Part shown: piece by piece, positions 1,031-33,144 of the stretch
How positions within the stretch are numbered: position 1 is the stretch's first letter
Layout of the letters: each line of letters opens with the position of its first letter
Origin: a phage
Sequence record: PZ386964.1
Direction: 5' to 3' (one strand)
Length of the DNA: 64,000 nucleotides
The notes under the pieces: model-generated
Told to the model about the DNA's origin: nothing
The model's input: only the letters and a program-made list of their open reading frames with translations
Databases searched by the model: none
Made by a program: the position numbers and the translations under genes

Positions 1031-1087
1031 GATGCACCAGATAAATAAAAGGCCGCCAATCGGCAGCCTTGTTGATTTGATTGTCGA

Positions 1088-1948
1088 TTAAAACTCTTCT
1101 GCGTCGGTCGGAGTTTCATTAACAGGGCCAGCGGCACCGCTTGCTTCTTCCTGCTTGCTGCGGTCAATGTTAACGTTGCCGCCAACTACATCGTTGTGGA
1201 ATGCTTTGGCGACTTCATACAGACCTTTGTCCTGCACCAGACCTTCCAGCTCAAACTTCAGAACTGACCAGGTGTTGCCATCTTTGGACTGAGACGCAGT
1301 ACCCATGCGAACGATGTTCATGAAGGTCGGCGGAGTTTTCAGGCCCTGCGGAGTCTGAACTTTCTTCTGCTGCAGCGCGGTCATCAGCATGCGAGACGGC
1401 TTGATCATGGAAGAAGTCAGAGACAGCATTGCGCTACCAAATTCACCAGTTTCTTCGTTCAACAGAATCACGAAGTGGTTACGTGTATCTGCGTAGTAAG
1501 GTGATTTCTTCTCGTGCACCTTGCCGTTCTCGTCTGGCACAAACACCTTACCGTTGATTTCAACAGCGCGGCCTGCTGCGACTTCTGCATCAACGTGCTC
1601 TTTGGTGAATTCACCTTTAAAGCCTTTATCGTCGGACTCGCGACCGCCCCAAAGGATGAAGGTGCGTTTGAATGCGCAGGGGATGATCTGCACACCTTTC
1701 TTGCCGTCATACAATTCACCAGTAACGGTGTTGTACAACATGCCAGCTTTTGCGCCAGGAACGTGTTTTGGATCATCTTCGTCGACCATCGGAGACATCT
1801 TTTGCAGCACGACGATAAAAGGAATGGCATAAGCGTCGGCATCGGCACCTTCAAAGCCAGCGCCAAAATCGGTCATGTCGACAAAATCAGCCATAGCGGA
1901 CATCTGGGTGTTTTTCACTGCAACTTCGGTAGTTTCTTTCTTAGACAT
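1088..1948 (-). CDS. hypothetical protein; possible ssDNA-binding protein (acidic C-terminal tail ending ...TDAEEF)
   Basis: 286 aa ORF; acidic C-terminus ending in Phe resembles the tails of T7 gp2.5 and bacterial SSB; sits in replication module. Function is inference. Confidence 0.3.
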   Translation of the reverse strand: MSKKETTEVAVKNTQMSAMADFVDMTDFGAGFEGADADAYAIPFIVVLQKMSPMVDEDDPKHVPGAKAGMLYNTVTGELYDGKKGVQIIPCAFKRTFILWGGRESDDKGFKGEFTKEHVDAEVAAGRAVEINGKVFVPDENGKVHEKKSPYYADTRNHFVILLNEETGEFGSAMLSLTSSMIKPSRMLMTALQQKKVQTPQGLKTPPTFMNIVRMGTASQSKDGNTWSVLKFELEGLVQDKGLYEVAKAFHNDVVGGNVNIDRSKQEEASGAAGPVNETPTDAEEF

Positions 1949-2007
1949 TTGATGTTTTCCTATAGTATCAAGTTTCGTGGCAACCTGATTTCAAGATAAA
2001 GGTTAAA

Positions 2008-2565
2008 TTACTTTTTGCTTTTAGGCAAGGTTATTTTAGCTTCTTTATACTCAAAAACGCTAATATCTTCACTAACTGGATTACCCGCTTCCAGCTGTTC
2101 TTTTACAAATGACTTCAGTGTAGCAGAATGAATGCCTTGTTTCAACGTGGCTTCAACACCATCTTCACGCAGCGCGGCAACAATCTCTTGCGCTTGCTCG
2201 ATTTCTTCGCGACCGAACTCAGCCGTGACGCTGGACTTGATCAAGCCGCCGTAACCGTTGTTGACAAGCCAATCGAATACCTTCAATTCATTTTCTTTCT
2301 TGATTGAAGCATTTACTTTTGACTCGACCTTGATTTTGGTCTTGTCTTCAAGCTTGATTTCGGACACGCCAAGCTCATCCATAACGCCAGGAAGCAGAAC
2401 AGTTTTGATTTCACTGATGCGCTGCTTTTGCATATCAGCTTCATCTTCAAGCTCTGTCAAAGCTTCTTGGCGCTCTGCCAATTCCGATACTAAGCGCGCA
2501 AGACGCTCCTGAATGCTCTCAGGAGCAACCTGCGGCAAATCATCTTCCCAATTAATATTGCTCAT
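2008..2565 (-). CDS. hypothetical protein (coiled-coil N-terminus)
   Basis: 185 aa ORF, ATGA overlap with the upstream gene, same strand as neighbours. Confidence 0.5.
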   Translation of the reverse strand: MSNINWEDDLPQVAPESIQERLARLVSELAERQEALTELEDEADMQKQRISEIKTVLLPGVMDELGVSEIKLEDKTKIKVESKVNASIKKENELKVFDWLVNNGYGGLIKSSVTAEFGREEIEQAQEIVAALREDGVEATLKQGIHSATLKSFVKEQLEAGNPVSEDISVFEYKEAKITLPKSKK

Positions 2566-2825
2566 ATTTTACCTTCTTGCATTAGCCCTTCAACACGGGT
2601 CATTTGATAACGTTCAGGTTTCCAAGCCGCCAAAGCCTTCTCAGCGCCTTTTAAAGTCTTATATGCCTTGATGCCAGGCATAATGACGGTATTCACCCCA
2701 GCACCGTTGCCATAATCAAACTCTTTTACAACGCGGAACATGCCGTCAATTTCTTTGACCAAAAGACGTTTGAACGCGATTGCGCCAGTAGCTTCATTTT
2801 TGTAACGTTCAAGGATGCGTACCAT
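2562..2825 (-). CDS. hypothetical protein
   Basis: 87 aa ORF in operon context. Confidence 0.4.
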   Translation of the reverse strand: MVRILERYKNEATGAIAFKRLLVKEIDGMFRVVKEFDYGNGAGVNTVIMPGIKAYKTLKGAEKALAAWKPERYQMTRVEGLMQEGKI

Positions 2826-2901
2826 TTTGTATTCCTCTATTTCGTTTCGATGAAGTAATTATGACTCATCTTCCGTGACAAGTCAAATTATTTTTTTGAT
2901 A

Positions 2902-4425
2902 TTAATTCATCTTTTTGCCGTCGAGGATGTGATCAGCAAGCATTGACTTCATACTGAGTGAACGCTGAATTTCTTCGTCGATGGTATCAACACCAATAAA
3001 ATCAACATACAACACGCTTGATTTGGTGCCGATGCGGTGATTTCGGTCTTCGGATTGTTTGCGCAGCTCGTTGTCGTAGTTGCAAGAATAATAAATTGCC
3101 AAGTCAGCGGCGGTAAGCGTGATTCCGATGCCTGCCGCGGCTGCGTGACACACCAACACTTGCGTTCCACCGTTCTCGACTGTGTTTTTCTGGAAGTCAT
3201 CAATCAAGAACTCGCGCTGCTCTTTTGATGTTTCACCGTTGTACACACCAGTGACCACGCCTTCAGACTCAAGCCAGTCCTTAATCTGGTTCATCTCTTC
3301 CTTAAAGATGGCCCAAACAATGAATTTGCGCTCTGGGTCGTCTTCCAGCACCCCTTCCACATAATCCTTAAAGGCTGTGAATCGTGGGTTGTCTTCCATG
3401 TAGACCATCTCATCATACACCTTAACAAAGCCTGATGTCACCTGCTTCATCTTGGTGCGAGATGCGATCATCTCAAACTTAACGTTTTCTTCTTCGCCTT
3501 TATACTCCATCAGATAATTGTACTCATTCTTGAGTTCATCATAGACATCGCGCTGCTTAGGCGACAACTCGAAGTCGATAAACTTGTACACCTTCTCTGG
3601 AAGGTCCGGCAGGTATTCCGCTTTTGTCGCGCGGAAATAGTGCGGCTCCATCAGCCGGATAAGCTTGTCAAGGTTTTTGTACATCGGTCGGCCAAACTGG
3701 TCTTTGCGCGGCACTTGCGGAATGCCATAACCGTTGCCGCCGATTTTCTTGAGAATGGCCTGCATCTCTGGGTCGTGCGCTTCAAGCAGCACTGTAAATT
3801 CAGAGTTAAATGCGCGGAACGATTTGGTGCCAAGCAAACCTGCTTCAAGGAAGTGATACTGCATGTAAATATCAGCAGGCGAGCGCGGCAGCGGCGTACC
3901 GGAAAGGATTCGACGGGCCTTTGCCAGCCGTCCCAATTCCACAACCTTGATGGAGCGTTTGGCTGTGTTATTTTTGATACGCGTCGATTCATCAATGATC
4001 ATCAAACAGCGGTACTTCTTCAGTACGGACTCAATGTGTTGATAACCGACTGGCGTGTTCACCGTGTCAATGTTGAATGAGAAGATTCGTGCAGGCACTT
4101 CGCCTTCAGGATAGTGATCAGCAAACATCTTCTCCCAAAGTGCCTTGCCCTTTTTAGTTTTCATTTTGTCATTGCCGCGCCAGTAATGACCAATCCATTT
4201 AATGGAAAGGTGCTCTGGTGCTTCACGACGAATCCAGTTTGAGTGTACACCGTTAGGAGCGATTACAACCATGGCATCAAATGCGCCAGCGGTAAAATGC
4301 TTTTCAAACTCTGCCAAAGCGGTCCAGGTTTTGCCAAGACCCTGCTCCATGAAATAAGCAAAGTATTTTCTGCGGCCTGCTTTATCAAGCGCCAATAATT
4401 GGTGGCGCATTCCTTGTGTTTTCAT
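2902..4425 (-). CDS. SNF2-family (SF2) helicase/ATPase
   Basis: 507 aa; Walker A-like GLGKT, DEST-type motif II (MIIDESTRIKN), C-terminal helicase motifs. Confidence 0.7.
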   Translation of the reverse strand: MKTQGMRHQLLALDKAGRRKYFAYFMEQGLGKTWTALAEFEKHFTAGAFDAMVVIAPNGVHSNWIRREAPEHLSIKWIGHYWRGNDKMKTKKGKALWEKMFADHYPEGEVPARIFSFNIDTVNTPVGYQHIESVLKKYRCLMIIDESTRIKNNTAKRSIKVVELGRLAKARRILSGTPLPRSPADIYMQYHFLEAGLLGTKSFRAFNSEFTVLLEAHDPEMQAILKKIGGNGYGIPQVPRKDQFGRPMYKNLDKLIRLMEPHYFRATKAEYLPDLPEKVYKFIDFELSPKQRDVYDELKNEYNYLMEYKGEEENVKFEMIASRTKMKQVTSGFVKVYDEMVYMEDNPRFTAFKDYVEGVLEDDPERKFIVWAIFKEEMNQIKDWLESEGVVTGVYNGETSKEQREFLIDDFQKNTVENGGTQVLVCHAAAAGIGITLTAADLAIYYSCNYDNELRKQSEDRNHRIGTKSSVLYVDFIGVDTIDEEIQRSLSMKSMLADHILDGKKMN

Positions 4426-4844
4426 GACAATTCCTCTAAATACTTGATGATGTGATGAATAGTTCCCTTCACGATTATCTCACGTTGAACGTCTGCAGTA
4501 TTATAACGCTTTAATTCAATAGAAGGGTGGACTAAATAAAACATCTTCTCAGAATCAACCTTAAGCAGAACAAATGATGGGTATTTCCAATCATTCCACG
4601 AAGAAAGAAAGCTGCATTGACCTTTCTCAAATGCATTTCTGAAAGGTGCAGTGGTGACCCTTGCAGGCCACGATTCAAAGAACTTCATTTCAAGCCAAAA
4701 GCCGCGCCCTTTCCGGTTGGTGCCGATTACGTCCGGCACGCCATCACCAGTCATCGACTCGATTCGTTGAAGCTTCAATACTGACTCTGAATGCTTCTTT
4801 AAAGGTACGAATATGTATTTCTGCTCACGGTTATTTGTTGCCAT
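4422..4844 (-). CDS. VRR-NUC domain nuclease (PD-(D/E)xK)
   Basis: 140 aa; GVPDVIG...GFWLEMK matches the VRR-NUC PD..(E/D)xK signature; overlaps the SNF2 gene as in many phages. Confidence 0.55.
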   Translation of the reverse strand: MATNNREQKYIFVPLKKHSESVLKLQRIESMTGDGVPDVIGTNRKGRGFWLEMKFFESWPARVTTAPFRNAFEKGQCSFLSSWNDWKYPSFVLLKVDSEKMFYLVHPSIELKRYNTADVQREIIVKGTIHHIIKYLEELS

Positions 4845-7728
4845 CTGGATACACCTGTTTGATAACGTCGACTATGAACATGTCAATGCCTTCAAGCTTG
4901 CGACCTTTCATCAGGAAGAATGCGCCGTTCCCGACGTTTTCAGCAATGTATTTCCCGTACTTCTGGAACTTTTCTGGACGAATCCTGAAGCGCATTGGCG
5001 AGTCGGTCGAGTCGTCTTTGCACATAAGGTCGATGAACTGAGTCTCAAGCTTGTTTCCGTACTGGTCAAACTCTGCGTAGCGGCCATCAGCTTGAAGACC
5101 TTTTTTAAGCTTGCCGTGCTTTGTATAGATGCCGCGCTCAAGTCGTTTACGGATGCGTGTCGCTTCGTTCTCGTCTGCAAGCACTTTCTTTGTCAACTTG
5201 CCGATTACTATTGCACGCTCGTCATCACCGACTTCCTTCATCTGGCGTATTGAAGCGCCGGACGTCACGCCAATAAGATAAGGGTCATTATACGCCCAGC
5301 CAAACTTTGTGTGCATCTCTGTAAGGTCGCCGTATTTGACTTCAGCATTGGCCAATGCATCCTTTTGCTTTTGCGTTAAGGTTCCGGCTTCACGTGCTTC
5401 GATATACTTCATCGCCTTCACCATTCCGTATCCTTTCGCGTTCATGATGCCGCCGATTAGCTTTCCGTTCGCGATGGTCCAGTTCATCGAAGAGTGATCA
5501 GGGTCGATTGGCACATAATCCACGCCTTCTTTCGCAAGTTCACGTAGTATCGCAATCGTCTGGTCTTCGTCCTTAGCAGCGCGTAAGCAGGCAGCGGCAA
5601 ATTCCAACGGGTAGTGTCGCTTAAGCCACAAAGTCCAGTAGGTCACGACCGCGTATGACACGGAGTGTGACTTGTTAAAGCCCCATGACCCGAACGTGGC
5701 CATCGCTTGCCAAAGCTTTCTTGCATCCGCTTCCGGTACACCGTTATTTATTGCTCCTGCAACGAAGTCTTCGCCAAGCTTGTTAAAGTATTCTTCACCC
5801 TTACGGCCTGACATCGCCTTACGTACAGCGGACGTTTTCGCCCAGTCAAATGAACCAATCTCTTTAACCACGGCCATGATTTGCTCTTGGTAAAGAAACA
5901 CGCCGTAAGTCTCTTTTAAGTACGGCTCAAGCTGCGGCACGTCGTATTCAATCGGCGCACGCCCTGCCGCGCGTTCAATGTATTTCTGGGCCATACCGGA
6001 CGACAACGGGCCAGGTCGACCCAAAGCTGTCAGGTTGTCGATTTTGTTAAAGTTATCGACGTGAACAAAGTTTGTTACTGAGCGTACAGCATCACCTTCA
6101 AACTGGAAGATGCCTGACATCTTGTTTTCGTTAAGAATGTCAAGGACGCTTTGATCATCAAGCTTGATTCCGTAGAGCGTTTCAGCATCAATAACGCCTG
6201 TATCAGAAATAATGCCGAGAGTACGAAGGCCCAGCGCATCAAGCTTCAAAAGGTTTAGGTATTCGCTGTCAGGCTTATCGATTTGCGCAATCCCTTCTGC
6301 AGTTACAGTACAGTAATCAGAGATTGGGTCATTACACACAATGATTCCCGCTGCGTGAACACCTGTGTGAGACGGGTGAATCTCAAGGTCACCCATGCAA
6401 CGCGCGGCGTCAGGATATTTCGCCACGAACTCTTGACCCGTGGTCGTTGTTGCAAAGGTATCCTCCAGGCCGTGACCATAACGGGCGTCACCGGATGAGT
6501 ATTCAAGCAGTGCGTTTTTAATGTTGGCTGTTTCGTGGTATCCAATGTTGAACTTCTTACCAACTTGAGCCATTACTGAGTTGGCCTTAAGCGTGTTGAT
6601 GTTGCCAAGCTTTGCAACGTTCATTTCGCCGTATTTCTCTTTAAGATAATCAAACACCATATAGCGTTTGGTATCTTCAAAGTCGATGTCGATGTCAGGA
6701 AGGTCGGCGCGGCTTACGTCAATGAATCTGGCAAACAGCAGCTTATACGGGATTGGGTCCACTTCCGTGATGCCGAGGCAATAGCAAACAAGTGAACCGG
6801 CTGATGAGCCGCGCGCAGGACCGACGAGCATTTTTGTTTTTGCGAATCGTACAAGGTCCGCTACTACCAGAAAGTATGAGTCGAAATCTTTCAGCTGAAT
6901 CTGGTGAATTTCTTCGTTGAAGCGGTCCTCATATTCCTGAGTCCATTCTTTGATGTGACCTGCTTTTAGACGGTACTCCATCCCCTCACGCGCAAGCTTT
7001 ACCATGTCACCAGCAAGGTGAATAATCGGTGCCTTACGCAATTTCAGGTCAAGTCCGACTATGCCGTTTGCTATGTCAACAGCATTGGCCGTTGCCTGAT
7101 TGAGCTCATCTTCAGTCAAGATGCCTTTAAGCTGTTTGCGCAAGTCTTCCGCGTCAACGATGCAGTGCGGCTTGACCGTGTCGCGCACTTCCCAAGCATA
7201 AGCGAAGTCAACGTGCTCAGGAGAAGGCATGTGATTGTATCCGGTTAAAACCAGCGGCCTTCCACTGCTACGATGAGCCAATGCCTGGCGCTTTGCCAAA
7301 AGGAACGACGATGGGTTGACGTCTATATAGTCGTAGTCCTCTGGCCGCAGCAACTCCACAGCACCGCCACAGAATTTAACGACGCCATCGAGCGCACCGA
7401 ACTCTGAACGGGTAAGTCCACCGCGCTGCGTTGCAAGTGTTGTAGCATTGTAAAAAGATTTTAAGTCAAGGGCCAATATCCAAGCCTTCGGTTTGAATCC
7501 CTTTTTAGGGTCCGCATCAGGGTCGATGATTGGAATCTCCATCCCAAACATAGGCTTAATATCATTTTTCTGGCATTCCTTTTCCCAGCGAACGTGACCC
7601 CATGTATTGTTATCAACTAATGCCGCGACTTCGCAACCCAACTCTTTGAGCCGTGCTATAATTTCAGGATGCCGTCCATATACTTCTTTGAACGTGTAAC
7701 CGCTGCGAACTCTCAATTGTGGAAACAT
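4831..7728 (-). CDS. DNA polymerase III alpha-type (DnaE-like) replicative polymerase
   Basis: 965 aa; N-terminal PHP-like region; motif GSSAGSLVCYCLGITEVDP corresponds to the conserved Pol III alpha GSAAGSLVAYxLGIT region. Confidence 0.7.
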   Translation of the reverse strand: MFPQLRVRSGYTFKEVYGRHPEIIARLKELGCEVAALVDNNTWGHVRWEKECQKNDIKPMFGMEIPIIDPDADPKKGFKPKAWILALDLKSFYNATTLATQRGGLTRSEFGALDGVVKFCGGAVELLRPEDYDYIDVNPSSFLLAKRQALAHRSSGRPLVLTGYNHMPSPEHVDFAYAWEVRDTVKPHCIVDAEDLRKQLKGILTEDELNQATANAVDIANGIVGLDLKLRKAPIIHLAGDMVKLAREGMEYRLKAGHIKEWTQEYEDRFNEEIHQIQLKDFDSYFLVVADLVRFAKTKMLVGPARGSSAGSLVCYCLGITEVDPIPYKLLFARFIDVSRADLPDIDIDFEDTKRYMVFDYLKEKYGEMNVAKLGNINTLKANSVMAQVGKKFNIGYHETANIKNALLEYSSGDARYGHGLEDTFATTTTGQEFVAKYPDAARCMGDLEIHPSHTGVHAAGIIVCNDPISDYCTVTAEGIAQIDKPDSEYLNLLKLDALGLRTLGIISDTGVIDAETLYGIKLDDQSVLDILNENKMSGIFQFEGDAVRSVTNFVHVDNFNKIDNLTALGRPGPLSSGMAQKYIERAAGRAPIEYDVPQLEPYLKETYGVFLYQEQIMAVVKEIGSFDWAKTSAVRKAMSGRKGEEYFNKLGEDFVAGAINNGVPEADARKLWQAMATFGSWGFNKSHSVSYAVVTYWTLWLKRHYPLEFAAACLRAAKDEDQTIAILRELAKEGVDYVPIDPDHSSMNWTIANGKLIGGIMNAKGYGMVKAMKYIEAREAGTLTQKQKDALANAEVKYGDLTEMHTKFGWAYNDPYLIGVTSGASIRQMKEVGDDERAIVIGKLTKKVLADENEATRIRKRLERGIYTKHGKLKKGLQADGRYAEFDQYGNKLETQFIDLMCKDDSTDSPMRFRIRPEKFQKYGKYIAENVGNGAFFLMKGRKLEGIDMFIVDVIKQVYPDGNK

Positions 7729-27479: not shown

Positions 27480-28015
27480 TGGGCGGCTTTTGGCGTAAAG
27501 CGAAATACTCTAAAGAGTTGCATTACTTCTTAAAAGATGAAGGCATAAGCATTTGCGGCAGGTATAAAAGGGATGGCAATTCAACTTTGCAAATTGACAA
27601 GAAGGCCGATTGGTTGCTCAAGGAAGAGTGCACCGTTTGCCGCGAGCGTTTAGATAGAAAAGTGAAAACGGTTGACTACATAAAGGAGCTTCAAAGCAGG
27701 TGCAAAAGTCCGCAGGAGTTCGCCATTGCTCTTTGGGGTGATCACCCTGAATTAAGAAAGGAATGGTTAAAGACTGATGCGATCAACTCTATTTTTAAAA
27801 TGAAGTATATGACTACCGCCAGATATAAAATGGAAAAATCAGTCATTAAGAAGGTATTATCTTATTGGAGGGATACGGTTGACATTGTAAAAATAAAGAA
27901 ATACCAAAAGGAAGTATTGCTGGAATTGGAAAGGATTGGTTATAAAGTCACCAATAAAATGATAGAGGAAGAGATAAAAAGACGGACTGACAAAGGATTG
28001 ATGCCTAAATTGTAG
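27476..28015 (+). CDS. hypothetical protein (Cys-containing, Lys-rich)
   Basis: 179 aa ORF, last gene of the rightward early block. Confidence 0.45.
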   Translation: MMGGFWRKAKYSKELHYFLKDEGISICGRYKRDGNSTLQIDKKADWLLKEECTVCRERLDRKVKTVDYIKELQSRCKSPQEFAIALWGDHPELRKEWLKTDAINSIFKMKYMTTARYKMEKSVIKKVLSYWRDTVDIVKIKKYQKEVLLELERIGYKVTNKMIEEEIKRRTDKGLMPKL

Positions 28016-28119
28016 CTAATAAACGGACGCTGCTTTACGTGTTTTGAATAATGGGATGTGTACAATGGGTCGCTTTATGCGGCCTTTTGTCGTTTTTGTT
28101 GGAAATTTTGAAGTGAGTG

Positions 28120-28710
28120 GCGTGGACCGTGGTGGTTTGAGGCTTGGTTGATACGTATGGAATTTAGGATATTGTGGATGAAAATAATAAATAAAATGGA
28201 AATTTGTATTTATTTTTGGAGTATGAGCATTTGATTTTGGATTTTAGTGTGCGGATTTTGGAGAGTGAACCGTGGTGTGTGGTGGCGAAAGCCGCGCCGT
28301 GCCTGGATTCTATGGTTGAAGAGTACACTCTTACGGATAGGTTTTTATCCGTATCATGGCGCTAGGGTGCGCCGCGCCTGGATTTGTACACTGAATCTTA
28401 CGGATGATACGGATGATACGCCATTTTTCCTTATTGTAACCAGAATTATTTCAAAAATTAATTAACTCCATTTTGAATTAATTTAAATTAATTTTTTCTA
28501 CATCCTCATACTTATGTTAATTTATATATTTAACGTATTATCCGTAAGATATAAGTAAAAACAAAGACTTGCGGCAATACGGATGATACGTCATGATACG
28601 CTTCAACCAGCCAACTGCGGCTAAGTCATTGATTTGCATAACAAGCGGCGAAAGGGATGGATTTCTTTTATACGTATCAAACAGTACACCACGCACCACG
28701 GTCCGTTATC
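28120..28710. repeat. iteron-rich, AT-rich noncoding region 1
   Basis: Multiple copies of ACGGATGATACG / CGTATCATCCGTA in both orientations (about 28329-28358, 28396-28422, 28545-28557, 28575-28601); GATTTTGGA x3 at about 28241-28260; GGACCGTGGTG at 28124/28267 and its reverse complement at about 28687-28704; AT-rich core 28440-28540. Confidence 0.6.
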
Positions 28711-28765
28711 CATTCAGCACTATGATTTGTGTACGTTTATAGCCATAATGAACATCAATCTGCAC

Positions 28766-28794
28766 TTGAATATAATGTCCATCCATTGTATAAT
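28766..28794 (+). promoter_or_regulatory. sigma70-like promoter
   Basis: TTGAAT -17- TATAAT upstream of the gene starting at 28830. Confidence 0.4.
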
Positions 28795-28829
28795 TCACAC
28801 TATTAATTTGCACTATGGGATTTTGCACT

Positions 28830-29303
28830 ATGAGTCAAGATTATGTAGCGATGCCTGAAGACTTTGAAGACCCGCGATTTGCAGAGCACAATCAGGCTTT
28901 ATTCGATGAGTTCATTGACCTTGTTATTCAGGGCCATGACATGCGCGCAGCTTTTGCACTAGTATTTGGAATGGAAGTTGCAACGGATAACTACACTGGC
29001 CAGCGAATCCTTTGCGCGCAACGCAATCCATACTACAAGATGCGCTTCAAAAAGCGTATGGAAGAGATGCCACTCAAGGATTTGTGGAGCGTAAAAGGTG
29101 CAATTCACAATTTGGTCAAGCTTGTGCGTGATCCAGAAGTCGCGGCATCAGCCAAGCTTAATGCTATTCGTGAACTGAATATCATCTACGGCATCACGAT
29201 GATTGATGAAAACGGCAATAGTAAAATGGGCCGTTCTATGGACGATTTCTACAAGGATTTTGGAGAGGCGGCCAAAGAAGGTGAGCAATTCTCCCGCCAC
29301 TAG
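28830..29303 (+). CDS. hypothetical helix-rich protein; candidate DNA-binding protein (small-terminase-like or regulator)
   Basis: 157 aa from ATG 28830; start codon lies inside a copy of the TTTGCACTATG motif; helix-rich sequence FIDLVIQGHDMRAAFALVFG, KLNAIRELNIIYGI. Function is inference. Confidence 0.45.
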   Translation: MSQDYVAMPEDFEDPRFAEHNQALFDEFIDLVIQGHDMRAAFALVFGMEVATDNYTGQRILCAQRNPYYKMRFKKRMEEMPLKDLWSVKGAIHNLVKLVRDPEVAASAKLNAIRELNIIYGITMIDENGNSKMGRSMDDFYKDFGEAAKEGEQFSRH

Positions 29304-29417
29304 CCAATTTGCACTATAAAACGGCCCTAGAACACATTTTCTCCACTTCTAGGGCCATCGGTAATACGACGGGGAAGGTTACAACCATAAACGCGTTAGA
29401 AAGTGTATTATTATAAG

Positions 29418-29681
29418 TCATCTTTTAGTCACTTTCCGTAACAATTTACGACCTTCAACCGTCCAATCGAACGACTCCACCAGCAGATTTGCACCATAAC
29501 CCAAGACGATGCGCCCTTTCTCGTTATCGACCCGCCAACAAGTCTCGAATAGCATTCGATTTGCACTATTAACTATTGCCGCAACGCGCGTTGGGTAAGC
29601 GCAATTTGCACTATGGTCATAAAGGGATAAGGTGCGACCACTTCCGATGGACAACGTAGCAATGAGAATAAGCGTATTCAT
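29418..29681 (-). CDS. hypothetical protein
   Basis: 87 aa ORF; contains three antisense copies of the 11-mer motif, so coding status is uncertain. Confidence 0.3.
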   Translation of the reverse strand: MNTLILIATLSIGSGRTLSLYDHSANCAYPTRVAAIVNSANRMLFETCWRVDNEKGRIVLGYGANLLVESFDWTVEGRKLLRKVTKR

Positions 29682-29731
29682 AAGCCACCAATTTGCACTA
29701 TGAAAAGCGACCCCGAAGGGCCGCCATTCAA

Positions 29732-30358
29732 TTAGATGATTTGGAATGTGTAGGATTTATTACCGAACTCGAAGTTCAAGCGCCCAGCTTCCTTAAGCTT
29801 CATGCGGAAGCGAATATGCTTGCTATCCGGTAGGCCCAGCGCGGCGAACGCTACGCGGACCGATTTGAACTCTCCTACACCCTCGACCATAACGCCGTTA
29901 CGGGTGAGACGCTTTTGCGCCACTTCCTTATTGTCCCAACTTTTTGCAATGCCTTCGCTATTCGAACGGCGATGGGAAGGAGTTCCATTTTGCACTACGC
30001 AATTTGCACTATCGTTTAAACCGCTCTTAACGAAGGCTTCATACTCTTCGTCGGTCATCGCGTCGAGTTCTTCCTGAGTCGGCTCGGCCTTTTTAACTAC
30101 CGCACGCGCCTTATGCGTTTTTACATCGCTGGACACTTCCTCGCGCGGCTTCGCGTCGGGGATGGGCGATTCGTTGGACGGCTCATCGAGCGCGTTTAAG
30201 GACTCGATTAACGCGATTACGCGAGTCTCGGCGGTCCGGCGGTCCGCAAACTTCTTAATCGGCTTCGAACCGGAATTTGCATTATAAAATGCAACGAGGT
30301 CGGCGGTCTTAGTTGCGATAACGTCGCCGCTAGTCGAGAAACGATTTAAGCTAACCAT
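29732..30358 (-). CDS. hypothetical protein
   Basis: 208 aa ORF with protein-like composition; contains three antisense copies of the motif. Confidence 0.4.
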   Translation of the reverse strand: MVSLNRFSTSGDVIATKTADLVAFYNANSGSKPIKKFADRRTAETRVIALIESLNALDEPSNESPIPDAKPREEVSSDVKTHKARAVVKKAEPTQEELDAMTDEEYEAFVKSGLNDSANCVVQNGTPSHRRSNSEGIAKSWDNKEVAQKRLTRNGVMVEGVGEFKSVRVAFAALGLPDSKHIRFRMKLKEAGRLNFEFGNKSYTFQII

Positions 30359-30438
30359 AATAAACTCCTATTTGTTAGGGCGCTAGGCGCGAAAGAATTT
30401 TATTAAAGCGCCGCGCACGACGCTCTAAAAATCCTCTC

Positions 30439-30723
30439 TTACGCTTCGACGAGGGAGAAGGTCTCAAATTCTTCTTCGCCCATAACGAGTAAGATATTAC
30501 CGATTTCGACCGCTTCGAAGAAGTATCCGTTAACGTTTACTTCGAAGGCTTCGCGGTCCGATTCCGGTAGCGCCGCGTAAAGTTTAAAAGCCTCGGCGAC
30601 CGTTACCCCACCCGCCTCGATAGTTTGGTCTACGTTCGCGGCGTAGACTTCGGATAAATTTTGTTTAACGCCGTAGTTCTCGACGATAGCGTTACGAATA
30701 GAAGAAACGTTAAGAATAGCCAT
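30439..30723 (-). CDS. small acidic hypothetical protein (cassette A; paralog of 31358-31648)
   Basis: 94 aa; N-terminus AILNVSSIRNAIVE..VYAANVDQTIE aligns with ITLAAIRNARAE..VYLFNVDATIEE of cassette B; homologous promoter, 5'-UTR hairpin and RBS. Confidence 0.5.
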   Translation of the reverse strand: MAILNVSSIRNAIVENYGVKQNLSEVYAANVDQTIEAGGVTVAEAFKLYAALPESDREAFEVNVNGYFFEAVEIGNILLVMGEEEFETFSLVEA

Positions 30724-30740
30724 TTTAAACTCCTAGTTGG

Positions 30741-30770
30741 GAGAGGCGTTAACGACCTATTCGTTAACTC
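30741..30770 (-). promoter_or_regulatory. 5'-UTR stem-loop of cassette A (GUUAACGA-AUAGG-UCGUUAAC)
   Basis: Minus-strand reading gagTTAACGAataggTCGTTAAcgcctc; homologous to the cassette B hairpin with two compensatory base-pair changes; followed by CCAACTAGGAG RBS. Confidence 0.55.
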
Positions 30771-30791
30771 ATCCCGTCCCGATATGAGTAC

Positions 30792-30819
30792 ATTATAATA
30801 TAGTGTAGAAAAAAGTAAA
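30792..30819 (-). promoter_or_regulatory. sigma70-like promoter of cassette A (minus strand)
   Basis: Minus-strand TTTACT -16- TATAAT, preceded by CGAAAAAGTGCTTTACT shared with cassette B. Confidence 0.45.
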
Positions 30820-30862
30820 GCACTTTTTCGATAAAAATGAGATAAATTATTTTATCTTTTTC

Positions 30863-30890
30863 TTTACTTCTTCGTACACTCGCATATACT
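30863..30890 (+). promoter_or_regulatory. sigma70-like promoter of middle gene (cassette C), divergent from cassette A promoter
   Basis: TTTACT -16- TATACT with shared TTTACTTCTTCGTACACT and TTTATATCGAGA elements. Confidence 0.45.
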
Positions 30891-30946
30891 TGTTTATATC
30901 GAGACGGGCGATGTCCCTTCCTTCTACTAGCATCGGGAGCTTTATT

Positions 30947-31249
30947 ATGACTACTTTAATCTCTTCCATCCTTACTTACGACGAAGACCGCTTAACCGTT
31001 CGCTCTCTTATCGCCGCCGTTAACGCGGAACTAGAATCTAGCGCCATTAAGGTCCGCGCGGTCGCCTTCATCGGCCTTTCCTTCGACGATATGAAGTATG
31101 CCGAACGTAGCGCTATCCGCTTCGCGAAGACCGACGACGAAGCCGTTACCCTTATCGAGACGGTTACGCCGCGCGGCGAAGCGTTAATTATCGTCGAGTA
31201 TATCGACGTAGAAGGCGATAAGGCTTATAAATATTTTATCGCAGAATAA
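30947..31249 (+). CDS. small acidic hypothetical protein (cassette C)
   Basis: Start at MTTLISSILTYDEDRL... with RBS GGGAG; the ORF-track N-terminal extension overlaps the promoter. Confidence 0.45.
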   Translation: MTTLISSILTYDEDRLTVRSLIAAVNAELESSAIKVRAVAFIGLSFDDMKYAERSAIRFAKTDDEAVTLIETVTPRGEALIIVEYIDVEGDKAYKYFIAE

Positions 31250-31260
31250 CGAAAAAGTGC

Positions 31261-31289
31261 TTTACTTCTTCGTACACTAAGACTATAAT
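31261..31289 (+). promoter_or_regulatory. sigma70-like promoter of cassette B
   Basis: TTTACT -17- TATAAT; upstream CGAAAAAGTGCTTTACT is the reverse complement of 30812-30830. Confidence 0.45.
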
Positions 31290-31310
31290 GTTTTATATCG
31301 AGAGGGGGAT

Positions 31311-31336
31311 GAGGTAGCGAATAGGTCGCTACCCTC
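31311..31336 (+). promoter_or_regulatory. 5'-UTR stem-loop of cassette B (GGUAGCGA-AUAGG-UCGCUACC)
   Basis: gagGTAGCGAataggTCGCTACcctc; same loop AUAGG as cassette A, stem differs at two positions with compensatory partner changes; followed by CCAACTAGGAG RBS and ATG 31358. Confidence 0.55.
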
Positions 31337-31357
31337 CCGACCAACTAGGAGATTATT

Positions 31358-31648
31358 ATGATTACTTTAGCCGCTATCCGTAACGCTCGCGCCGAAACTT
31401 CCGAAAACTCTAACGTATTTGGCGAAAAACTTAAAAACGTTTATCTCTTTAACGTAGATGCGACTATCGAGGAGCTTCATAGTCCTATCGATTTTAGCGA
31501 ATTTACGGAACTCGAAGAGGAAGATATTTCTACCTTCCGCGTTACTATCGAAGGCAAGGTTTATTTTGCTACGGAGTTCGGCGGCGAATATCTCGCGGTA
31601 TCCGAAGGCGAAGGCCGTTACTCTTTCTTTAAAATCGTCTCCTTATAA
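31358..31648 (+). CDS. small acidic hypothetical protein (cassette B; paralog of 30439-30723)
   Basis: 96 aa; paralogous to cassette A protein; followed by a strong terminator. Confidence 0.5.
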   Translation: MITLAAIRNARAETSENSNVFGEKLKNVYLFNVDATIEELHSPIDFSEFTELEEEDISTFRVTIEGKVYFATEFGGEYLAVSEGEGRYSFFKIVSL

Positions 31649-31668
31649 TACCCTTCCGTTATTAATAG

Positions 31669-31693
31669 GCCGCGCTTAGTCGCGGCTTTTCTT
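31669..31693 (+). terminator. rho-independent terminator
   Basis: GCCGCG-CTTAGT-CGCGGC hairpin followed by TTTTCTT. Confidence 0.65.
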
Positions 31694-31813
31694 CGTCCCT
31701 ATCTCGATGCGCTTCTCCGCGAAAACTCCTTTATCCTTCCCTTCTTCGTCGCATAATCTTCATCGAGATGCGCCTTAGTTCGCATAACAGGTATTACGTT
31801 AAATGGAGAACAT

Positions 31814-32078
31814 CGCGTAAGTCCTTGTTTTATATAGACACCTATATCGGACCGTTAGGGCGGGTCGCGTAAGTCGTTGTTTTATAAAGGCGCAAAACTT
31901 TCCCTTCGTTCCGAACTAAAACGAGAAATATGCCGACCCTTCGCCGGAAAATAGTACGCATGCGAAATTACATGCATCTAGAATAATCCCCACCGATATT
32001 ATCCTACACGCAATCATTCGCTTTCGAATCATTATGCTTCATATTATTATGCGTCGAATCATTCGCTTTCGAATTGTA
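31814..32078. repeat. noncoding repeat block: 23-bp direct repeats and two copies of an imperfect palindrome
   Basis: CGCGTAAGTC(C/G)TTGTTTTATA at about 31814 and 31866; AATCATTCGCTTTCGAAT at about 32012 and 32057; further GAATTTGCAGTACACT copies at about 32164 and 32261. Confidence 0.5.
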
Positions 32079-32347
32079 ACGCTGGAAACTGTAACGTCGA
32101 TTGATTATTGCGTTCGTGTGGTTTTTATGGCATGGGTCTTTTGGTGCGTTTTGCTACTTGATGGAATTTGCAGTACACTAATCAAAATACGACACATTTG
32201 GTCCACTAACTTTTCAAAGAAAAAGTCCTAGACAGTACCGTACTATTTTGTACCCACAGGAAATTTGCAGTACACTCCTGTGCGGCAGGCAAAATAAAGG
32301 GCCGCACCAAGCGACCCACGATTCACGGTTAAATCAACAAGCACCCA

Positions 32348-32728
32348 CTATTCACTCTTATGGGCATCACCAAAGCCATCCGCAATCTGGCTGATCAGCG
32401 ATTCAATGGACACAGTTTTACCAATTGATCGAGCGGTAATAGCAAGCATATTATCAATCAAACCGCGATTGACTTCACATGTTCCAGGCTTTGATTCATC
32501 TCCAGGACAACCAAAAAGCTGGTCGCGCAAACTTTCGAGGGAACGCTCAATATTTTCCAGCTTCTCTTCTAAATCGGATTGGCGACGTAAAACCCATGTT
32601 AAGTCGCGGTTGCCGACTTCCAATCCATTATAATCGCAAGATGGAACGTCAATTTTGATACTGGAACCAAAAGCAGTACCGCTGCCTTTAGTATATGTGT
32701 GGCTAATAGAATCATTTTTATTTGACAT
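32348..32728 (-). CDS. hypothetical protein (last gene of tail-fibre operon)
   Basis: Start at internal MSNKNDSISHTY... (RBS AAAGGT); the longer ORF-track start would include a small hairpin. Confidence 0.4.
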   Translation of the reverse strand: MSNKNDSISHTYTKGSGTAFGSSIKIDVPSCDYNGLEVGNRDLTWVLRRQSDLEEKLENIERSLESLRDQLFGCPGDESKPGTCEVNRGLIDNMLAITARSIGKTVSIESLISQIADGFGDAHKSE

Positions 32729-32822
32729 ATCATTACCTTTAATATTTGGGTGATTAACAATAACTATAATAAAGCCGCATAGCGCGGCATTCAAATCGAT
32801 TTATTAATCGTGACGATTGGAT

Positions 32823-32918
32823 TTACTTATCCAACCAATCAATAAGCGCAATCATGGCTACAACAAATACTGCACTTATTGCTAATATGATCAAAAACAT
32901 CACGAAATCAACGTTCAT
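32823..32918 (-). CDS. small single-pass hydrophobic peptide (31 aa)
   Basis: MNVDFVMFLIILAISAVFVVAMIALIDWLDK; its ATG overlaps the stop of the upstream gene in another frame. Confidence 0.3.
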   Translation of the reverse strand: MNVDFVMFLIILAISAVFVVAMIALIDWLDK

Positions 32919-33144
32919 CAATCGATACCAATTGTGCAGGGTCGCCGGATACCGTTGCGCCGATGATACCCATCTGAGAGAAAAATTCTGAATAAACTTC
33001 CTTCCAGTACTTGCGCGCAGCTTTCTGGGCTTGACCTTTTCGCTTGTAGCTTTTACCTTGAAAGATGAAGCGGTCTTTTGGAGCGTAATACTCCACCACA
33101 CCTTCCAGCCATTGTAAGAATGCTACTGATTCATTTTGATTCAT
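32908..33144 (-). CDS. hypothetical protein
   Basis: 78 aa ORF with protein-like composition (MNQNESVAFLQWLEGVVEYYAPKDRF...). Confidence 0.4.
   Translation of the reverse strand: MNQNESVAFLQWLEGVVEYYAPKDRFIFQGKSYKRKGQAQKAARKYWKEVYSEFFSQMGIIGATVSGDPAQLVSIDER

What the first reader, a model, noticed from the sequence alone, without database searches (positions are those of the whole stretch)
30439..31693. Inverted duplication of a promoter / 5'-UTR hairpin / small-gene cassette with compensatory stem changes
Two roughly 95-aa paralogous ORFs (30439-30723 minus; 31358-31648 plus) are each preceded by the same promoter (CGAAAAAGTGCTTTACT...TATAAT), a 5'-UTR stem-loop, and CCAACTAGGAG-N7-ATG. The stems differ at two positions (GUUAACGA/UCGUUAAC versus GGUAGCGA/UCGCUACC) and both changes are matched by the pairing partner, while the AUAGG loop is identical. 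That covariation argues for selection on RNA structure: a translational operator, processing site or protein-binding element. A third gene (30947-31249) between them reuses the promoter without the hairpin. The divergent arrangement around a shared control region resembles small regulatory or toxin-antitoxin-like modules, but function is unknown.
Basis: seen in the sequence. Interest (0 to 1): 0.75.

Follow-up and report, generated by a model that had tools for sequence, protein, structure and literature searches.

The report
Portable early promoter–hairpin cassette in phage terminal repeat
Two copies of a host-type promoter followed by a conserved RNA hairpin drive small acidic orphan genes in the terminal repeat of an E. 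coli Wifcevirus; the hairpin is conserved into a second phage genus, and the block lies in a 2-kb stretch almost free of TG and CA dinucleotides.

Summary
The window is a Wifcevirus (PB1-like E. coli myovirus). The finding lies inside its direct terminal repeat (window 28470-~32141).

- **Cassettes.** Three sigma70-type promoters (CTTTACT-N16/17-TATAAT or TATACT) each drive a small acidic gene. Two leaders carry a two-tier hairpin with core CGA-AUAGG-UCG.
- **Hairpin.** Across 25+ Wifcevirus copies and Serratia Myosmarvirus, the loop and three closing pairs never change, bar one AUGGG loop variant. Five of eight stem pairs change compensatorily (96% paired; 0/500 shuffles). Wobble intermediates and re-made outer helices also occur. 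Rfam has no match.
- **Portability.** The cassette heads different genes in different isolates. It marks deletion, duplication and replacement junctions, as T4-type PeSL cassettes do.
- **Proteins.** They form an orphan family with no informative fold. No toxin-antitoxin or shared-operator features appeared.

Best reading: PeSL-like portable early-expression cassettes for fast-evolving host-takeover or anti-defence genes. The leader hairpin is under RNA-level selection. Its exact role is inferred, not shown.

Unexpected extra: the cassettes sit in a ~2-kb island where TG/CA is 0.35 of expectation. This is enforced at synonymous sites (z about -7) and shared by Wifcevirus, Myosmarvirus and Kylevirus. 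It is absent from PB1, T5 and T7, and unexplained.

The parts
28470..32141 (.). Direct terminal repeat (one collapsed copy) of the Wifcevirus genome; contains everything below.
   Evidence: Mansfield positions 1-3852 align to window 28470-32321. Mansfield DTR 1-3673 was defined by PhageTerm (PMC6753283).
30000..31950 (.). TG/CA-poor compositional island: TG/CA o/e 0.35, CG 1.94, TA 1.19, GC unchanged. It fades in gradually from ~29700 and ends ~190 bp before the DTR boundary.
   Evidence: There are 12-20 TG+CA per 500 nt against 72.9 +/- 7.3 elsewhere. Synonymous resampling gives z -6.4 to -7.4.
30792..30830 (-). Promoter of cassette A: A-tract/GTG upstream element, -35 TTTACT (30819-30814), 16-nt spacer, -10 TATAAT (30797-30792).
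30739..30780 (-). Leader hairpin A. Inner stem GUUAACGA/UCGUUAAC with loop AUAGG (30748-30768). Outer helix GGGAcGGG/CCuCUCCC.
   Evidence: CM hit 30745-30773, 43.3 bits, E 3e-9.
30721..30738 (-). CCAACUAGGAG Shine-Dalgarno block, 6-nt spacer and ATG of the 94-aa gene.
30439..30723 (-). 94-aa acidic protein (pI 4.05), paralog of the 96-aa protein. It is replaced by a 104/105-aa paralog or absent in other isolates.
29732..30358 (-). 208-aa gene (phrog_4730) downstream in the same transcription direction. It is conserved in PB1-like phages. In ECML-117 and RCIP0319 it is fused directly to cassette A. Its 5' part shares the TG/CA depletion.
30862..30946 (+). Middle cassette: -35 TTTACT 30863-30868, -10 TATACT 30885-30890, same initial transcribed AUAUCGAGA, short stem GGG(C)/CCC 30906-30917, SD GGGAG 30934-30938.
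30947..31249 (+). 100-aa acidic protein (pI 4.55). It is not detectably related to the other two and is deleted in one relative (L024).
31250..31289 (+). Promoter of cassette B: CGAAAAAGTG, -35 TTTACT 31261-31266, 17-nt spacer, -10 TATAAT 31284-31289.
31304..31338 (+). Leader hairpin B. Inner stem GGUAGCGA (31313-31320), loop AUAGG (31321-31325), UCGCUACC (31326-31333). Outer helix GGGG/CCCUCCC.
   Evidence: CM hit 31308-31336, 46.5 bits, E 4e-10.
31341..31360 (+). CCAACUAGGAG Shine-Dalgarno block, 6-nt spacer, ATG.
31358..31648 (+). 96-aa acidic protein (pI 4.40). It belongs to an orphan family and is 61-98% identical among otherwise ~94%-identical phages.
31667..31697 (+). Intrinsic terminator after the 96-aa gene.
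   Evidence: annotated in Mansfield and WFC.

Best explanation
These are portable immediate-early expression cassettes of a PB1-like enterobacterial myovirus.

**Anatomy (shown).** Each cassette has these parts in order:
- an A-rich upstream element;
- a host sigma70-type promoter (CTTTACT-N16/17-TATAAT);
- a conserved initial transcribed sequence (AUAUCG..);
- a self-contained leader stem-loop;
- a strong Shine-Dalgarno block, then ATG.

**Role as a genetic module (shown by comparison).** The cassettes sit in the direct terminal repeat. They drive small, acidic, fast-diverging orphan genes. Because the cassette is repeated, recombination between copies swaps, deletes and duplicates the genes behind it. 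T4-type phages do the same with PeSL cassettes.

**Gene function (inferred).** The genes are probably host-takeover or anti-defence functions.

**Hairpin (structure shown, role inferred).** The hairpin is selected as RNA. The stem needs only to pair. The loop AUAGG and its three closing pairs are sequence-constrained across two genera, which implies recognition by a conserved partner. My best guess at its role has two parts. First, it is a leader module that protects the 5' end of the mRNA. Second, it locks away the CCUCC-like anti-SD tract, so the SD stays open whatever gene follows. The conserved loop may additionally be bound by a host or phage factor.
For: **Identity and location.**
- The region is 93-97% identical to Wifcevirus genomes.
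- It lies inside the PhageTerm-defined DTR (PMC6753283).

**Promoters.**
- The promoter is unique to this block and far above chance.
- Nearly the same promoter and initial transcribed sequence occur in Pantoea phage Kyle and Serratia phage Spe5P4.

**Hairpin structure.**
- Folds have z -3.4 and -4.5.
- Over 19 distinct Wifcevirus leaders, 98% of stem cells pair.
- With Myosmarvirus added, 5/8 pairs change on both sides. 96% of cells pair, and 0/500 shuffles reach the covariation score. Slid controls pair at only 16-52%.
- G.U and U.G intermediates lie on the sense strand.
- Outer helices are re-made as GACGGG/CCCGUC in TH35 and AAGGAG/CUCCUU in type C.
- The 11-nt core CGAAUAGGUCG is identical in Myosmarvirus. 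That genus shares only ~17% genome nucleotide identity with ECML-117 (PMC6753285).
- A covariance model finds it only in these leaders.

**Modularity.**
- The same cassette is fused at the ATG to a 94-aa gene, a 104/105-aa gene or the 208-aa gene.
- The cassette is duplicated in F13.
- The middle gene is deleted in L024, leaving a hybrid promoter.
- An extra 50-aa ORF is present in some isolates.

**Cassette versus genes.**
- The cassette is 76% identical between copies, against 52% for the CDS.

**Gene products.**
- pI is 4.0-4.6.
- The family is found only in Wifcevirus, plus Kyle gp6 by hhalign at 87%.
- There are no Pfam or PHROG families.

**Published concepts.**
- PeSL: PMC2839356 and PMC4122927.
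- Leading regions are variable and anti-defence-rich: PMC12455610.
Against: - No transcription data exist for these phages, so start sites and timing are inferred from consensus only.
- With the likely start site, 4-9 nt stay unpaired upstream of the hairpin. From memory of the E. coli RNase E literature, that is marginal for 5'-end protection.
- Two lineages carry a stem mismatch (A x A in kaset/L020; A.C in L025/L026), and one has loop AUGGG. The element therefore tolerates some damage.
- The middle cassette and two Kyle cassettes work without the AUAGG hairpin, so it is not essential for expression as such.
- Most sequences are closely related. The number of independent compensatory events is small: about 3 within the genus plus 4-5 between genera.
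Confidence: 0.6

Rival explanations
1. The hairpin is a binding site (translational operator or decay signal) for a specific protein. That protein is either a conserved phage early/middle product that shuts off these early mRNAs, or a host RNA-binding protein common to Escherichia and Serratia. The stem is only a scaffold, and the AAUAGGU loop with its CGA/UCG closing pairs is the recognition surface.
For: - The loop and three closing pairs are invariant across two genera, while five distal stem pairs covary.
- Only 1 of 21 distinct copies has a loop change.
- The element sits between the promoter and the SD.
- This pattern matches what I recall for protein-bound hairpins such as the MS2 operator or lambda boxB (from memory, not tested here).
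Against: - No candidate binding protein was identified.
- The cassette proteins themselves are acidic.
- Sibling cassettes with the same promoter lack the element.
- No Rfam family matches.
Confidence: 0.25
2. The covariation is not due to selection on RNA. The inverted repeat may be kept perfect by DNA-level processes, such as template-switch 'quasipalindrome correction' or gene conversion between cassettes. Alternatively it acts as a double-stranded DNA operator for a dimeric regulator.
For: - The element is an inverted repeat in DNA.
- The cassettes clearly recombine with each other.
- From memory, palindrome correction can create 'compensatory' changes in one step.
Against: - Single-sided changes are mostly G.U/U.G on the transcribed sense strand, which would be A.C mismatches on the other strand (3 versus 1).
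- The half-site sequences differ between copies (GTTAAC, GGTAGC, GCTAAC, TCGGGC), which a sequence-specific dimeric DNA binder would not tolerate.
- The asymmetric 5-nt loop keeps its orientation relative to transcription on both strands and in both genera.
- The outer helix shifts register, which fits RNA folding rather than a DNA site.
Confidence: 0.08
3. The hairpin is an RNase III-type (or other endonuclease) processing site. It would resemble the sites upstream of T7 early genes, for example before the acidic anti-restriction gene 0.3. Processing would release a defined, stable and better-translated mRNA.
For: - The arrangement is the same: host promoter, then hairpin, then SD, then a small acidic first gene in a leading or terminal region. 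This rests on the T7 annotation and on my memory of T7 R0.3.
- The two-tier helix has an internal loop.
Against: - The total helix is only ~12-15 bp, shorter than typical E. coli RNase III substrates (from memory).
- The transcripts appear monocistronic with their own promoters, so processing is not needed to separate cistrons.
Confidence: 0.05

Closest known systems
PeSL (promoter-early stem-loop) regulatory cassettes of T4-type phages (Arbiol et al. 2010, PMC2839356; Comeau et al. 2014, PMC4122927)
   Same: - Both are repeated composite motifs. The order is AT-rich upstream region, strong sigma70-like early promoter, stem-loop, SD and start codon.
- Both sit mostly upstream of small ORFan genes in hyperplastic regions.
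- In both, recombination between copies produces insertions, deletions and replacements between close relatives.
   Different: - The phage lineage differs: PB1-like Lindbergviridae rather than T4-like.
- There are 2-4 copies, confined to the terminal repeat, rather than ~50 genome-wide.
- The stem-loop lies downstream of the start site in the transcribed leader and has no U-tract, so it is not a terminator or attenuator for upstream transcription.
- The loop sequence is conserved across genera, which is not described for PeSLs.
- PeSL mini-circles were not examined here.
Leading-end or terminal-repeat early modules: T7 A1-A3/gene 0.3 (Ocr), T5 first-step-transfer region, SPO1 host-takeover module
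   Same: - All are host-RNAP promoters at a genome terminus or terminal repeat that drive small early genes.
- T7 Ocr is likewise a small, very acidic first gene product.
- The leading region is variable and anti-defence-rich, and its restriction-site content can decide RM sensitivity (PMC12455610).
   Different: - There is no sequence or fold similarity to Ocr, A1/A2 or the SPO1 proteins.
- Which end of a Wifcevirus genome enters first is unknown.
- The T5 and T7 leading regions show no TG/CA depletion.
Protein-bound or antitermination leader hairpins downstream of divergent early promoters (lambda nutL/nutR boxB, HK022 put)
   Same: - Divergent early promoters are each followed by a short hairpin.
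- The pentaloop is conserved while the stem is free to vary.
   Different: - There is no boxA-like element and no N-like arginine-rich protein.
- The loop is AUAGG, not GNRA-like.
- The B transcript ends at a strong terminator right after one gene, so antitermination has no obvious purpose there.
- This comparison rests on memory and was not tested.
Fungal RIP (repeat-induced point mutation), as a comparator for the composition only
   Same: Both show depletion of CpA/TpG with a gain of TpA in a delimited block. A chance metagenome hit, L204, illustrates the RIP pattern (RIPCAL paper abstract, PMC2621366, seen).
   Different: - The phage islands keep intact, conserved genes and unchanged GC.
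- They show a real 2-3-fold gain in CpG.
- They show codon-junction-level avoidance.
- This indicates selection rather than gene-destroying hypermutation.

Membership tests
PeSL-type mobile early regulatory cassette | Repeated composite motif containing a sigma70-consensus-like early promoter with an AT-rich upstream region. | tested here: met
   CGAAAAAGTG-CTTTACT-N16/17-TATAAT occurs 3 times in the window against 0.03-0.04 expected. It is conserved in all relatives and in Kyle and Spe5P4. Promoter activity itself was not tested.
PeSL-type mobile early regulatory cassette | Stable stem-loop as part of the motif, ending in the SD and start codon of the downstream gene. | tested here: met
   All three leaders carry a stem-loop followed by SD and ATG.
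PeSL-type mobile early regulatory cassette | The stem-loop acts as a terminator or attenuator for transcription coming from upstream. In PeSLs it lies upstream of, within, or just before the start site of the promoter. | tested here: not met
   The hairpin lies ~10-45 nt downstream of the -10 box, inside the transcript, and has no U-run. The separate terminator is at 31667-31688.
PeSL-type mobile early regulatory cassette | Preferential location upstream of ORFans in plastic regions, with indels and replacements between close relatives bounded by the cassettes. | tested here: met
   - Three different genes sit behind cassette A.
- The middle gene is deleted in L024, leaving a hybrid promoter.
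- The cassette is duplicated in F13.
- The gene in ECML-117 is deleted between SD-ATG repeats.
   - There are no Pfam or PHROG hits. PADLOC was not scanned.
- Each gene has its own promoter.
- All products are acidic.
- Genes are gained and lost singly.
- Two of them are paralogs of each other.
Known RNA family (Rfam) | Match to a curated covariance model. | tested here: not met
   cmscan of 28000-33000 on both strands at E <= 1 gave 0 matches.
Ocr/ArdA-type DNA-mimic anti-restriction proteins | Sequence or fold similarity to Ocr/ArdA, with an elongated, highly acidic helical DNA-mimic surface. | tested here: inconclusive
   - In favour: the proteins are acidic (pI 4.0-4.6) and sit in an early, terminal location.
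- Against: there is no family hit.
- The AF2 model is alpha/beta with pLDDT 68.
- There is no meaningful structural neighbour.
lambda-type nut / HK022 put antitermination RNA | A boxA plus boxB hairpin bound by an N-like protein, or a two-hairpin put RNA, allowing read-through of downstream terminators. | not tested
   Only the anatomy was compared from memory. There is a single hairpin, a non-GNRA loop, and no N-like basic protein among the DTR genes.

The most novel reading that the evidence does not exclude
The cassettes are the control elements of a previously undescribed kind of 'stealth' leading-end module.

**What is seen.**
- About 2 kb of the terminal repeat, starting 150-350 bp from one physical genome end, has been purged of TG/CA dinucleotides. 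This holds on both strands, in coding and non-coding DNA.
- The purge reaches synonymous sites, codon junctions, amino-acid content and even the -35 box, which reads TTTACT instead of TTGACA.
- Three enterobacterial genera show it (Wifcevirus, Myosmarvirus, Kylevirus). PB1, T5 and T7 do not.

**Proposed reading.** This first-exposed, first-transcribed DNA evades a TG/CA-dependent attack or modification. The agent could be a host nuclease or deaminase, a broad set of restriction motifs, or the phage's own DNA-directed activity. Meanwhile the island expresses acidic anti-defence proteins from hairpin-stabilised mRNAs.

**What it would explain.** Wifceviruses resist EcoKI, EcoCFT_I, EcoRI, EcoRV and EcoCFT_II, yet EcoP1_I destroys them. 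AGACC, the EcoP1_I site, contains no TG/CA and is the only one of these sites abundant in the repeat.
Probability: 0.3. Interest if true: 0.85.

Novelty: new variant of a known kind. Interest (0 to 1): 0.66.

Why it matters
**A clean small RNA element.** It has real covariation, cross-genus conservation and no Rfam entry. It sits in the earliest transcripts of an understudied phage group related to therapeutic Pbunaviruses.

**Wider reach of cassette shuffling.** PeSL-style, cassette-mediated gene shuffling is not confined to T4-like phages. The cassettes also point to a small set of orphan acidic proteins as the likely variable host-takeover or anti-defence arsenal.

**An unexplained compositional island.**
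- I found no published description of anything like the TG/CA-poor island.
- It is large in effect (more than 7 SD), conserved and selection-driven.
- It offers a concrete, testable handle on an open question from the BASEL study. [quoted passage not shown]

Tried and rejected
- **Rfam scan of 28-33 kb at E <= 1:** nothing.
- **Pfam and PHROGs for the three small proteins:** nothing. Only the 208-aa and 162-aa neighbours hit PHROGs of unknown function.
- **Deep protein search with a paralog profile:** only Wifcevirus-sized contigs.
- **Middle gene as a third paralog:** rejected by BLASTP and hhalign.
- **Spe5P4 island proteins as homologs of the family:** not detectable.
- **Collection scans for TATAAT-N(8-34)-CGAATAGGTCG:** 180 matches across the loci fetched. 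Only the Wifcevirus and Myosmarvirus ones are real.
  - L175 has a promoter, ACCCCGA-AUAGG-UCGGGGU and an SD in a normal-composition contig. I treat it as probable chance.
  - L204 is a fungal-looking RIP relic.
- **Covariance model search of Kyle, PB1, Salmonella PCSE1 and Aeromonas Gekk3-15 loci:** no further copies.
- **TG/CA island near the g208 homolog in PB1, PCSE1 and Gekk3-15, and in the T5 FST and T7 left end:** absent.
- **Toxin-antitoxin reading:** rejected (see membership test).
- **Foreign origin of the island as a sufficient explanation:** judged unlikely. The same bias is kept across three genera and across non-homologous genes, and it grades into the ancestral 208-aa gene.
- **EcoCFT_II motif:** I could not find it in text. 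CACAG is from memory, supported only by matching site counts.
Full report
**1. What the window is.**
The 2.5 kb around the finding is 93-97% identical to about 29 Escherichia/Shigella phages of the genus Wifcevirus, such as WFC, WFH, ECML-117, Mansfield and Bas98-101. These are ~68-kb PB1-like myoviruses. One record places them in Lindbergviridae.

In Mansfield the homologous stretch lies inside a 3,673-bp direct terminal repeat (DTR) defined by PhageTerm (PMC6753283). Mansfield position 1 maps to window 28470 and the DTR end to about 32141. The finding is therefore part of the terminal repeat, collapsed to one copy in this assembly.

**2.
- The three ORFs exist as given.
- The inverted-repeat arms 30721-30775/31306-31360 and 30801-30833/31247-31279 are found independently.
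- TTTACT-N16/17-TATAAT occurs only at these two places in 64 kb, against 0.04 expected. The 19-nt promoter core has three copies here, against 0.03 expected window-wide.
- Both leaders fold into the stated 8-bp stem with loop AUAGG, plus an outer G-run/C-run helix. Energies are -12.6 and -20.2 kcal/mol, with z -3.4 and -4.5.
- The 94- and 96-aa proteins are paralogs (33% identity, E 9e-8).

Three corrections apply. The SD-ATG spacer is 6 nt. The middle gene's product is not a detectable paralog. Its leader is not simply 'hairpin-less': it keeps a short stem at the position of the outer helix.

That middle-leader stem takes several forms. It is GGGC/GCCC in most isolates, AGAGGC/GCCUCU in Mansfield and GGGAG/CUCCC in ECO71P1 and L020. 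Only GGG/CCC remains in this window.

**3. Structure is conserved as RNA.**
I collected the cassette from 25+ Wifcevirus genomes and contigs. The inner stem occurs in three main versions:
- type A: GUUAACGA/UCGUUAAC;
- type B: GGUAGCGA/UCGCUACC;
- type C: GCUAACGA/UCGUUAGC, newly found in L020 and L023.

Position 2 is therefore U-A, G-C or C-G. Position 5 is A-U, G-C or the intermediate G.U (L008, L009, L010, L024). Bas99 has a U.G at position 3.

Over 19 distinct leaders, 98% of cells pair. The outer helix is re-made several times: GACGGG/CCCGUC in TH35 and AAGGAG/CUCCUU in type C.

Disruptions exist but are rare. There is an A x A mismatch in kaset and L020, the latter also with loop AUGGG. 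There is an A.C mismatch in L025 and L026.

Decisively, Serratia phages of the genus Myosmarvirus (Spe5P4, MTx, MyoSmar) carry the same element. MyoSmar shares only ~17% nucleotide identity with ECML-117 (PMC6753285). Their sequence reads TATAAT-N14-UCGGGCGA-AUAGG-UCGCCCGG-...-SD-ATG.

The loop and the three closing pairs (CGA/UCG) are identical, while all five distal pairs differ and still pair. On the combined set:
- 5 of 8 pairs change on both sides;
- 96% of cells pair;
- no shuffle of 500 reaches the covariation score;
- slid controls pair at 16-52%.

A covariance model built from these finds exactly the two window copies and one per Myosmarvirus, and nothing else in 129 kb of related DNA. 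Rfam has no match. Single-sided changes are mostly wobble pairs on the sense strand, which favours RNA over a DNA palindrome.

**4. The cassette is a portable unit.**
The same promoter-hairpin-SD block is fused at the ATG to different genes:
- the 94-aa gene in this window and most isolates;
- a 104/105-aa paralog in WFC, WFH, Bas101 and L020-L027;
- the 208-aa gene directly in ECML-117 and RCIP0319. There the small gene has been lost between two TAGGAGTTTATTATG repeats.

Other rearrangements also map to the cassettes:
- F13 has the B cassette twice, the first copy joined to an internal fragment of the middle gene.
- RCIP0363, AV128, ECO71P1 and L027 have an extra 50-aa ORF.
- In L024 the middle gene is gone. 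A hybrid promoter remains, exactly as expected from recombination between the two identical 19-bp promoter cores at 30862-30880 and 31260-31278.

Between the two window copies the cassette is 76% identical, while the coding sequences are 52%. Shuffled sequence gives 47%. This rules out 'recent duplication with drift only'.

The behaviour matches PeSL cassettes of T4-type phages: an early sigma70 promoter, a stem-loop, an SD and a start codon upstream of ORFans, mediating modular shuffling (PMC2839356; PMC4122927). One defining PeSL feature is not met. Here the stem-loop is transcribed leader RNA without a U-tract, not a terminator for upstream transcription.

**5. The proteins.**
All three are small and acidic, with pI 4.05, 4.55 and 4.40. 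There are no Pfam or PHROG families.

The 94/96/104-aa family is confined to Wifcevirus-sized contigs. It diverges fast, at 61-98% identity among phages that are ~94% identical in DNA. Kyle gp6, a 94-aa acidic protein behind the same promoter, aligns full-length by hhalign (87%, E 4e-6).

The AF2 model is moderate (pLDDT 68): N-terminal helices plus a four- to five-stranded sheet. It has no informative neighbour.

An early host-takeover or anti-defence role is inferred from three things: location, charge and turnover. It also fits the general finding that leading regions are variable and anti-defence-rich (PMC12455610). Nothing supports a toxin-antitoxin module.

**6. An unexpected compositional island.**
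From about 30000 to 31950, TG/CA is at 0.35 of expectation, against 1.18 in the rest of the window. CG is at 1.94 (rest 1.09) and TA at 1.19 (rest 0.65), with unchanged GC. The bias fades in from ~29700 through the 5' part of the 208-aa gene.

Per 500 nt there are 12-20 TG+CA, against 72.9 +/- 7.3 elsewhere (minimum 46). It is the only such block in 64 kb, and it is strand-symmetric.

The three small genes show the avoidance at codon level:
- They use no CTG, TTG, GTG, TCA, ACA or CCA codons.
- Codon junctions are C|G 76 versus C|A 4, and T|A 46 versus T|G 6.
- CTAG, normally avoided, is strongly enriched.

Resampling synonymous codons with the phage's own usage predicts 31-37 TG+CA per gene, against 6-7 observed (z -6.4 to -7.4). 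The 208-aa gene gives z -5.3. The other DTR genes are normal. His, Gln, Cys, Trp and Met are depleted.

The surviving TG/CA cluster in the promoter, the hairpin flank, CCAAC and the start codons. The -35 box TTTACT is TTGACA without its TG and CA.

The island is present in every Wifcevirus copy, whatever genes it carries. It is also present, more strongly (o/e 0.14-0.29), in Myosmarvirus and in Pantoea phage Kyle (0.24).

It is absent near the homologous gene of PB1, Salmonella PCSE1 and Aeromonas Gekk3-15. It is also absent from the T5 FST repeat and the T7 left end.

In the three phages with defined termini it starts 150-350 bp from a DTR boundary, that is, from one physical end.

A chance hit to a fungal-looking contig (L204) shows what mutational CpA-to-TpA decay (RIP) looks like: no genes and TA near 2. 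The phage islands differ in three ways: intact conserved genes, constant GC, and two- to three-fold more CpG. I conclude selection, with the agent unknown.

**7. A link to published phenotypes (inference).**
[quoted passage not shown] They are nonetheless very sensitive to EcoP1_I, although site numbers for the two type III systems are similar (PMC11990801).

In this window the DTR contains:
- no GAATTC, no GATATC and no CACAG;
- one EcoKI site;
- seven AGACC, five of them in the island and in both orientations.

CACAG as the EcoCFT_II site is from my memory of REBASE. Its count of 87 in 64 kb agrees with the 87-93 listed in the BASEL table, but this is not proof.

Autographiviridae provide a precedent, in which restriction motifs in the first-injected region alone decide sensitivity (PMC12455610). 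If the same holds here, this site distribution would explain the phenotype.

**8. Mechanism, and what is shown versus inferred.**

Shown:
- the anatomy;
- conservation and covariation of the hairpin;
- cassette-bounded gene turnover;
- the DTR location;
- the compositional island and its synonymous-site basis.

Inferred:
- that the promoters are immediate-early host-RNAP promoters;
- that the hairpin acts in the mRNA;
- that the proteins are takeover or anti-defence factors;
- that this part of the DTR is exposed first.

For the hairpin, my best guess is a leader module that stabilises the mRNA and insulates the SD. The 3' arm of the outer helix is a CCUCC-like anti-SD tract, which the G-run keeps paired. 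The invariant loop implies an additional specific partner.

Rivals are a protein operator or decay signal (0.25), DNA-level palindrome maintenance or a dsDNA operator (0.08), and an RNase III-type site (0.05).

**9. Verdict.**
The finding is real and more interesting than a two-copy coincidence. It is a cross-genus conserved leader hairpin inside PeSL-like portable early cassettes, which makes it a new variant of a known kind. It is embedded in a strongly selected TG/CA-poor terminal island, for which I found no published description and no explanation.

Noticed in passing
window ~30000-31950 (fading in from ~29700); also L030 1-1900 plus L028 8000-8534 (Serratia phage Spe5P4), L210 ~2800-4600 (MTx), L209 ~3500-5250 (Pantoea phage Kyle): A ~2-kb island inside the terminal repeat is almost free of TG/CA dinucleotides (o/e 0.14-0.35). 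CG is about 2x and TA is raised, while GC is unchanged. The bias is enforced at synonymous sites and codon junctions (z about -7) and depletes His, Gln, Cys, Trp and Met. Three enterobacterial PB1-like genera share it. PB1, Salmonella PCSE1, Aeromonas Gekk3-15, T5 and T7 lack it. The cause is unknown.
   Followed up: partly
window 28792-30285 (+ strand), plus 32165 and 32262: The motif AATTTGCACTAT occurs 11 times at <=2 mismatches, five of them exact, all on the same strand and only inside the terminal repeat. It lies in coding (antisense) and non-coding DNA alike. Two AATTTGCAGTAC variants sit just inside and beyond the inner DTR boundary. Possible roles are terminase or packaging sites, iterons, or a phage-specific promoter.
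   Followed up: partly
window 28470-32141 (DTR) versus the rest: The repeat has no EcoRI, EcoRV or CACAG sites, no Dcm sites, one Dam site and one EcoKI site. It has 7 EcoP1_I sites (AGACC), 5 of them in the island in both orientations. This mirrors the published phenotype that only EcoP1_I restricts Wifceviruses. The CACAG = EcoCFT_II assignment is from memory.
   Followed up: partly
window 28000-28800: The region around the physical genome end (~28470) has low GC (0.39), no convincing ORFs and several inverted repeats: 28124-28158/28670-28704, 28259-28284/28687-28712 and 28395-28411/28534-28550. It may be packaging- or terminus-related.
   Followed up: no
window 31813-31837 and 31865-31889; 31996-32083: Direct repeats lie in the ~190 bp and adjoining DNA between the island and the DTR boundary. 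One is TCGCGTAAGTC(C/G)TTGTTTTATA(T/A)AG, present twice. The other is a 43-nt imperfect tandem pair.
   Followed up: no
window 31248-31260: The upstream element of promoter B (AACGAAAAAGTGC) happens to form the only EcoKI site (AAC-N6-GTGC) in the terminal repeat. Cassette A and several relatives have ATC or ACG there instead, so it is probably incidental.
   Followed up: no
L175 1830-1900 (2,220-bp metagenome contig): An unrelated contig carries TTGACT-N17-TATAAT, then ACCCCGA-AUAGG-UCGGGGU, AAGGAGG and ATG. That is the same loop and closing pairs in a leader-like context, but with normal base composition. About 1-2 such matches are expected by chance among the 180 hits.
   Followed up: partly
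L204 1-2500 (metagenome contig): This chance pattern hit is a fungal-looking contig. Its terminal 2.5 kb has TG/CA o/e 0.00-0.19, TA near 2 and no ORFs, the classic RIP signature. It served only as a comparator.
   Followed up: yes
L009 2697-2906 and L010 5064-5273 (ECML-117, F13, Eco4M-7): Some Wifceviruses carry an extra ~70-aa gene right after the 96-aa gene, annotated 'transcriptional regulator' in two records. It is absent from this window, which is further evidence of gene turnover at this locus.
   Followed up: no
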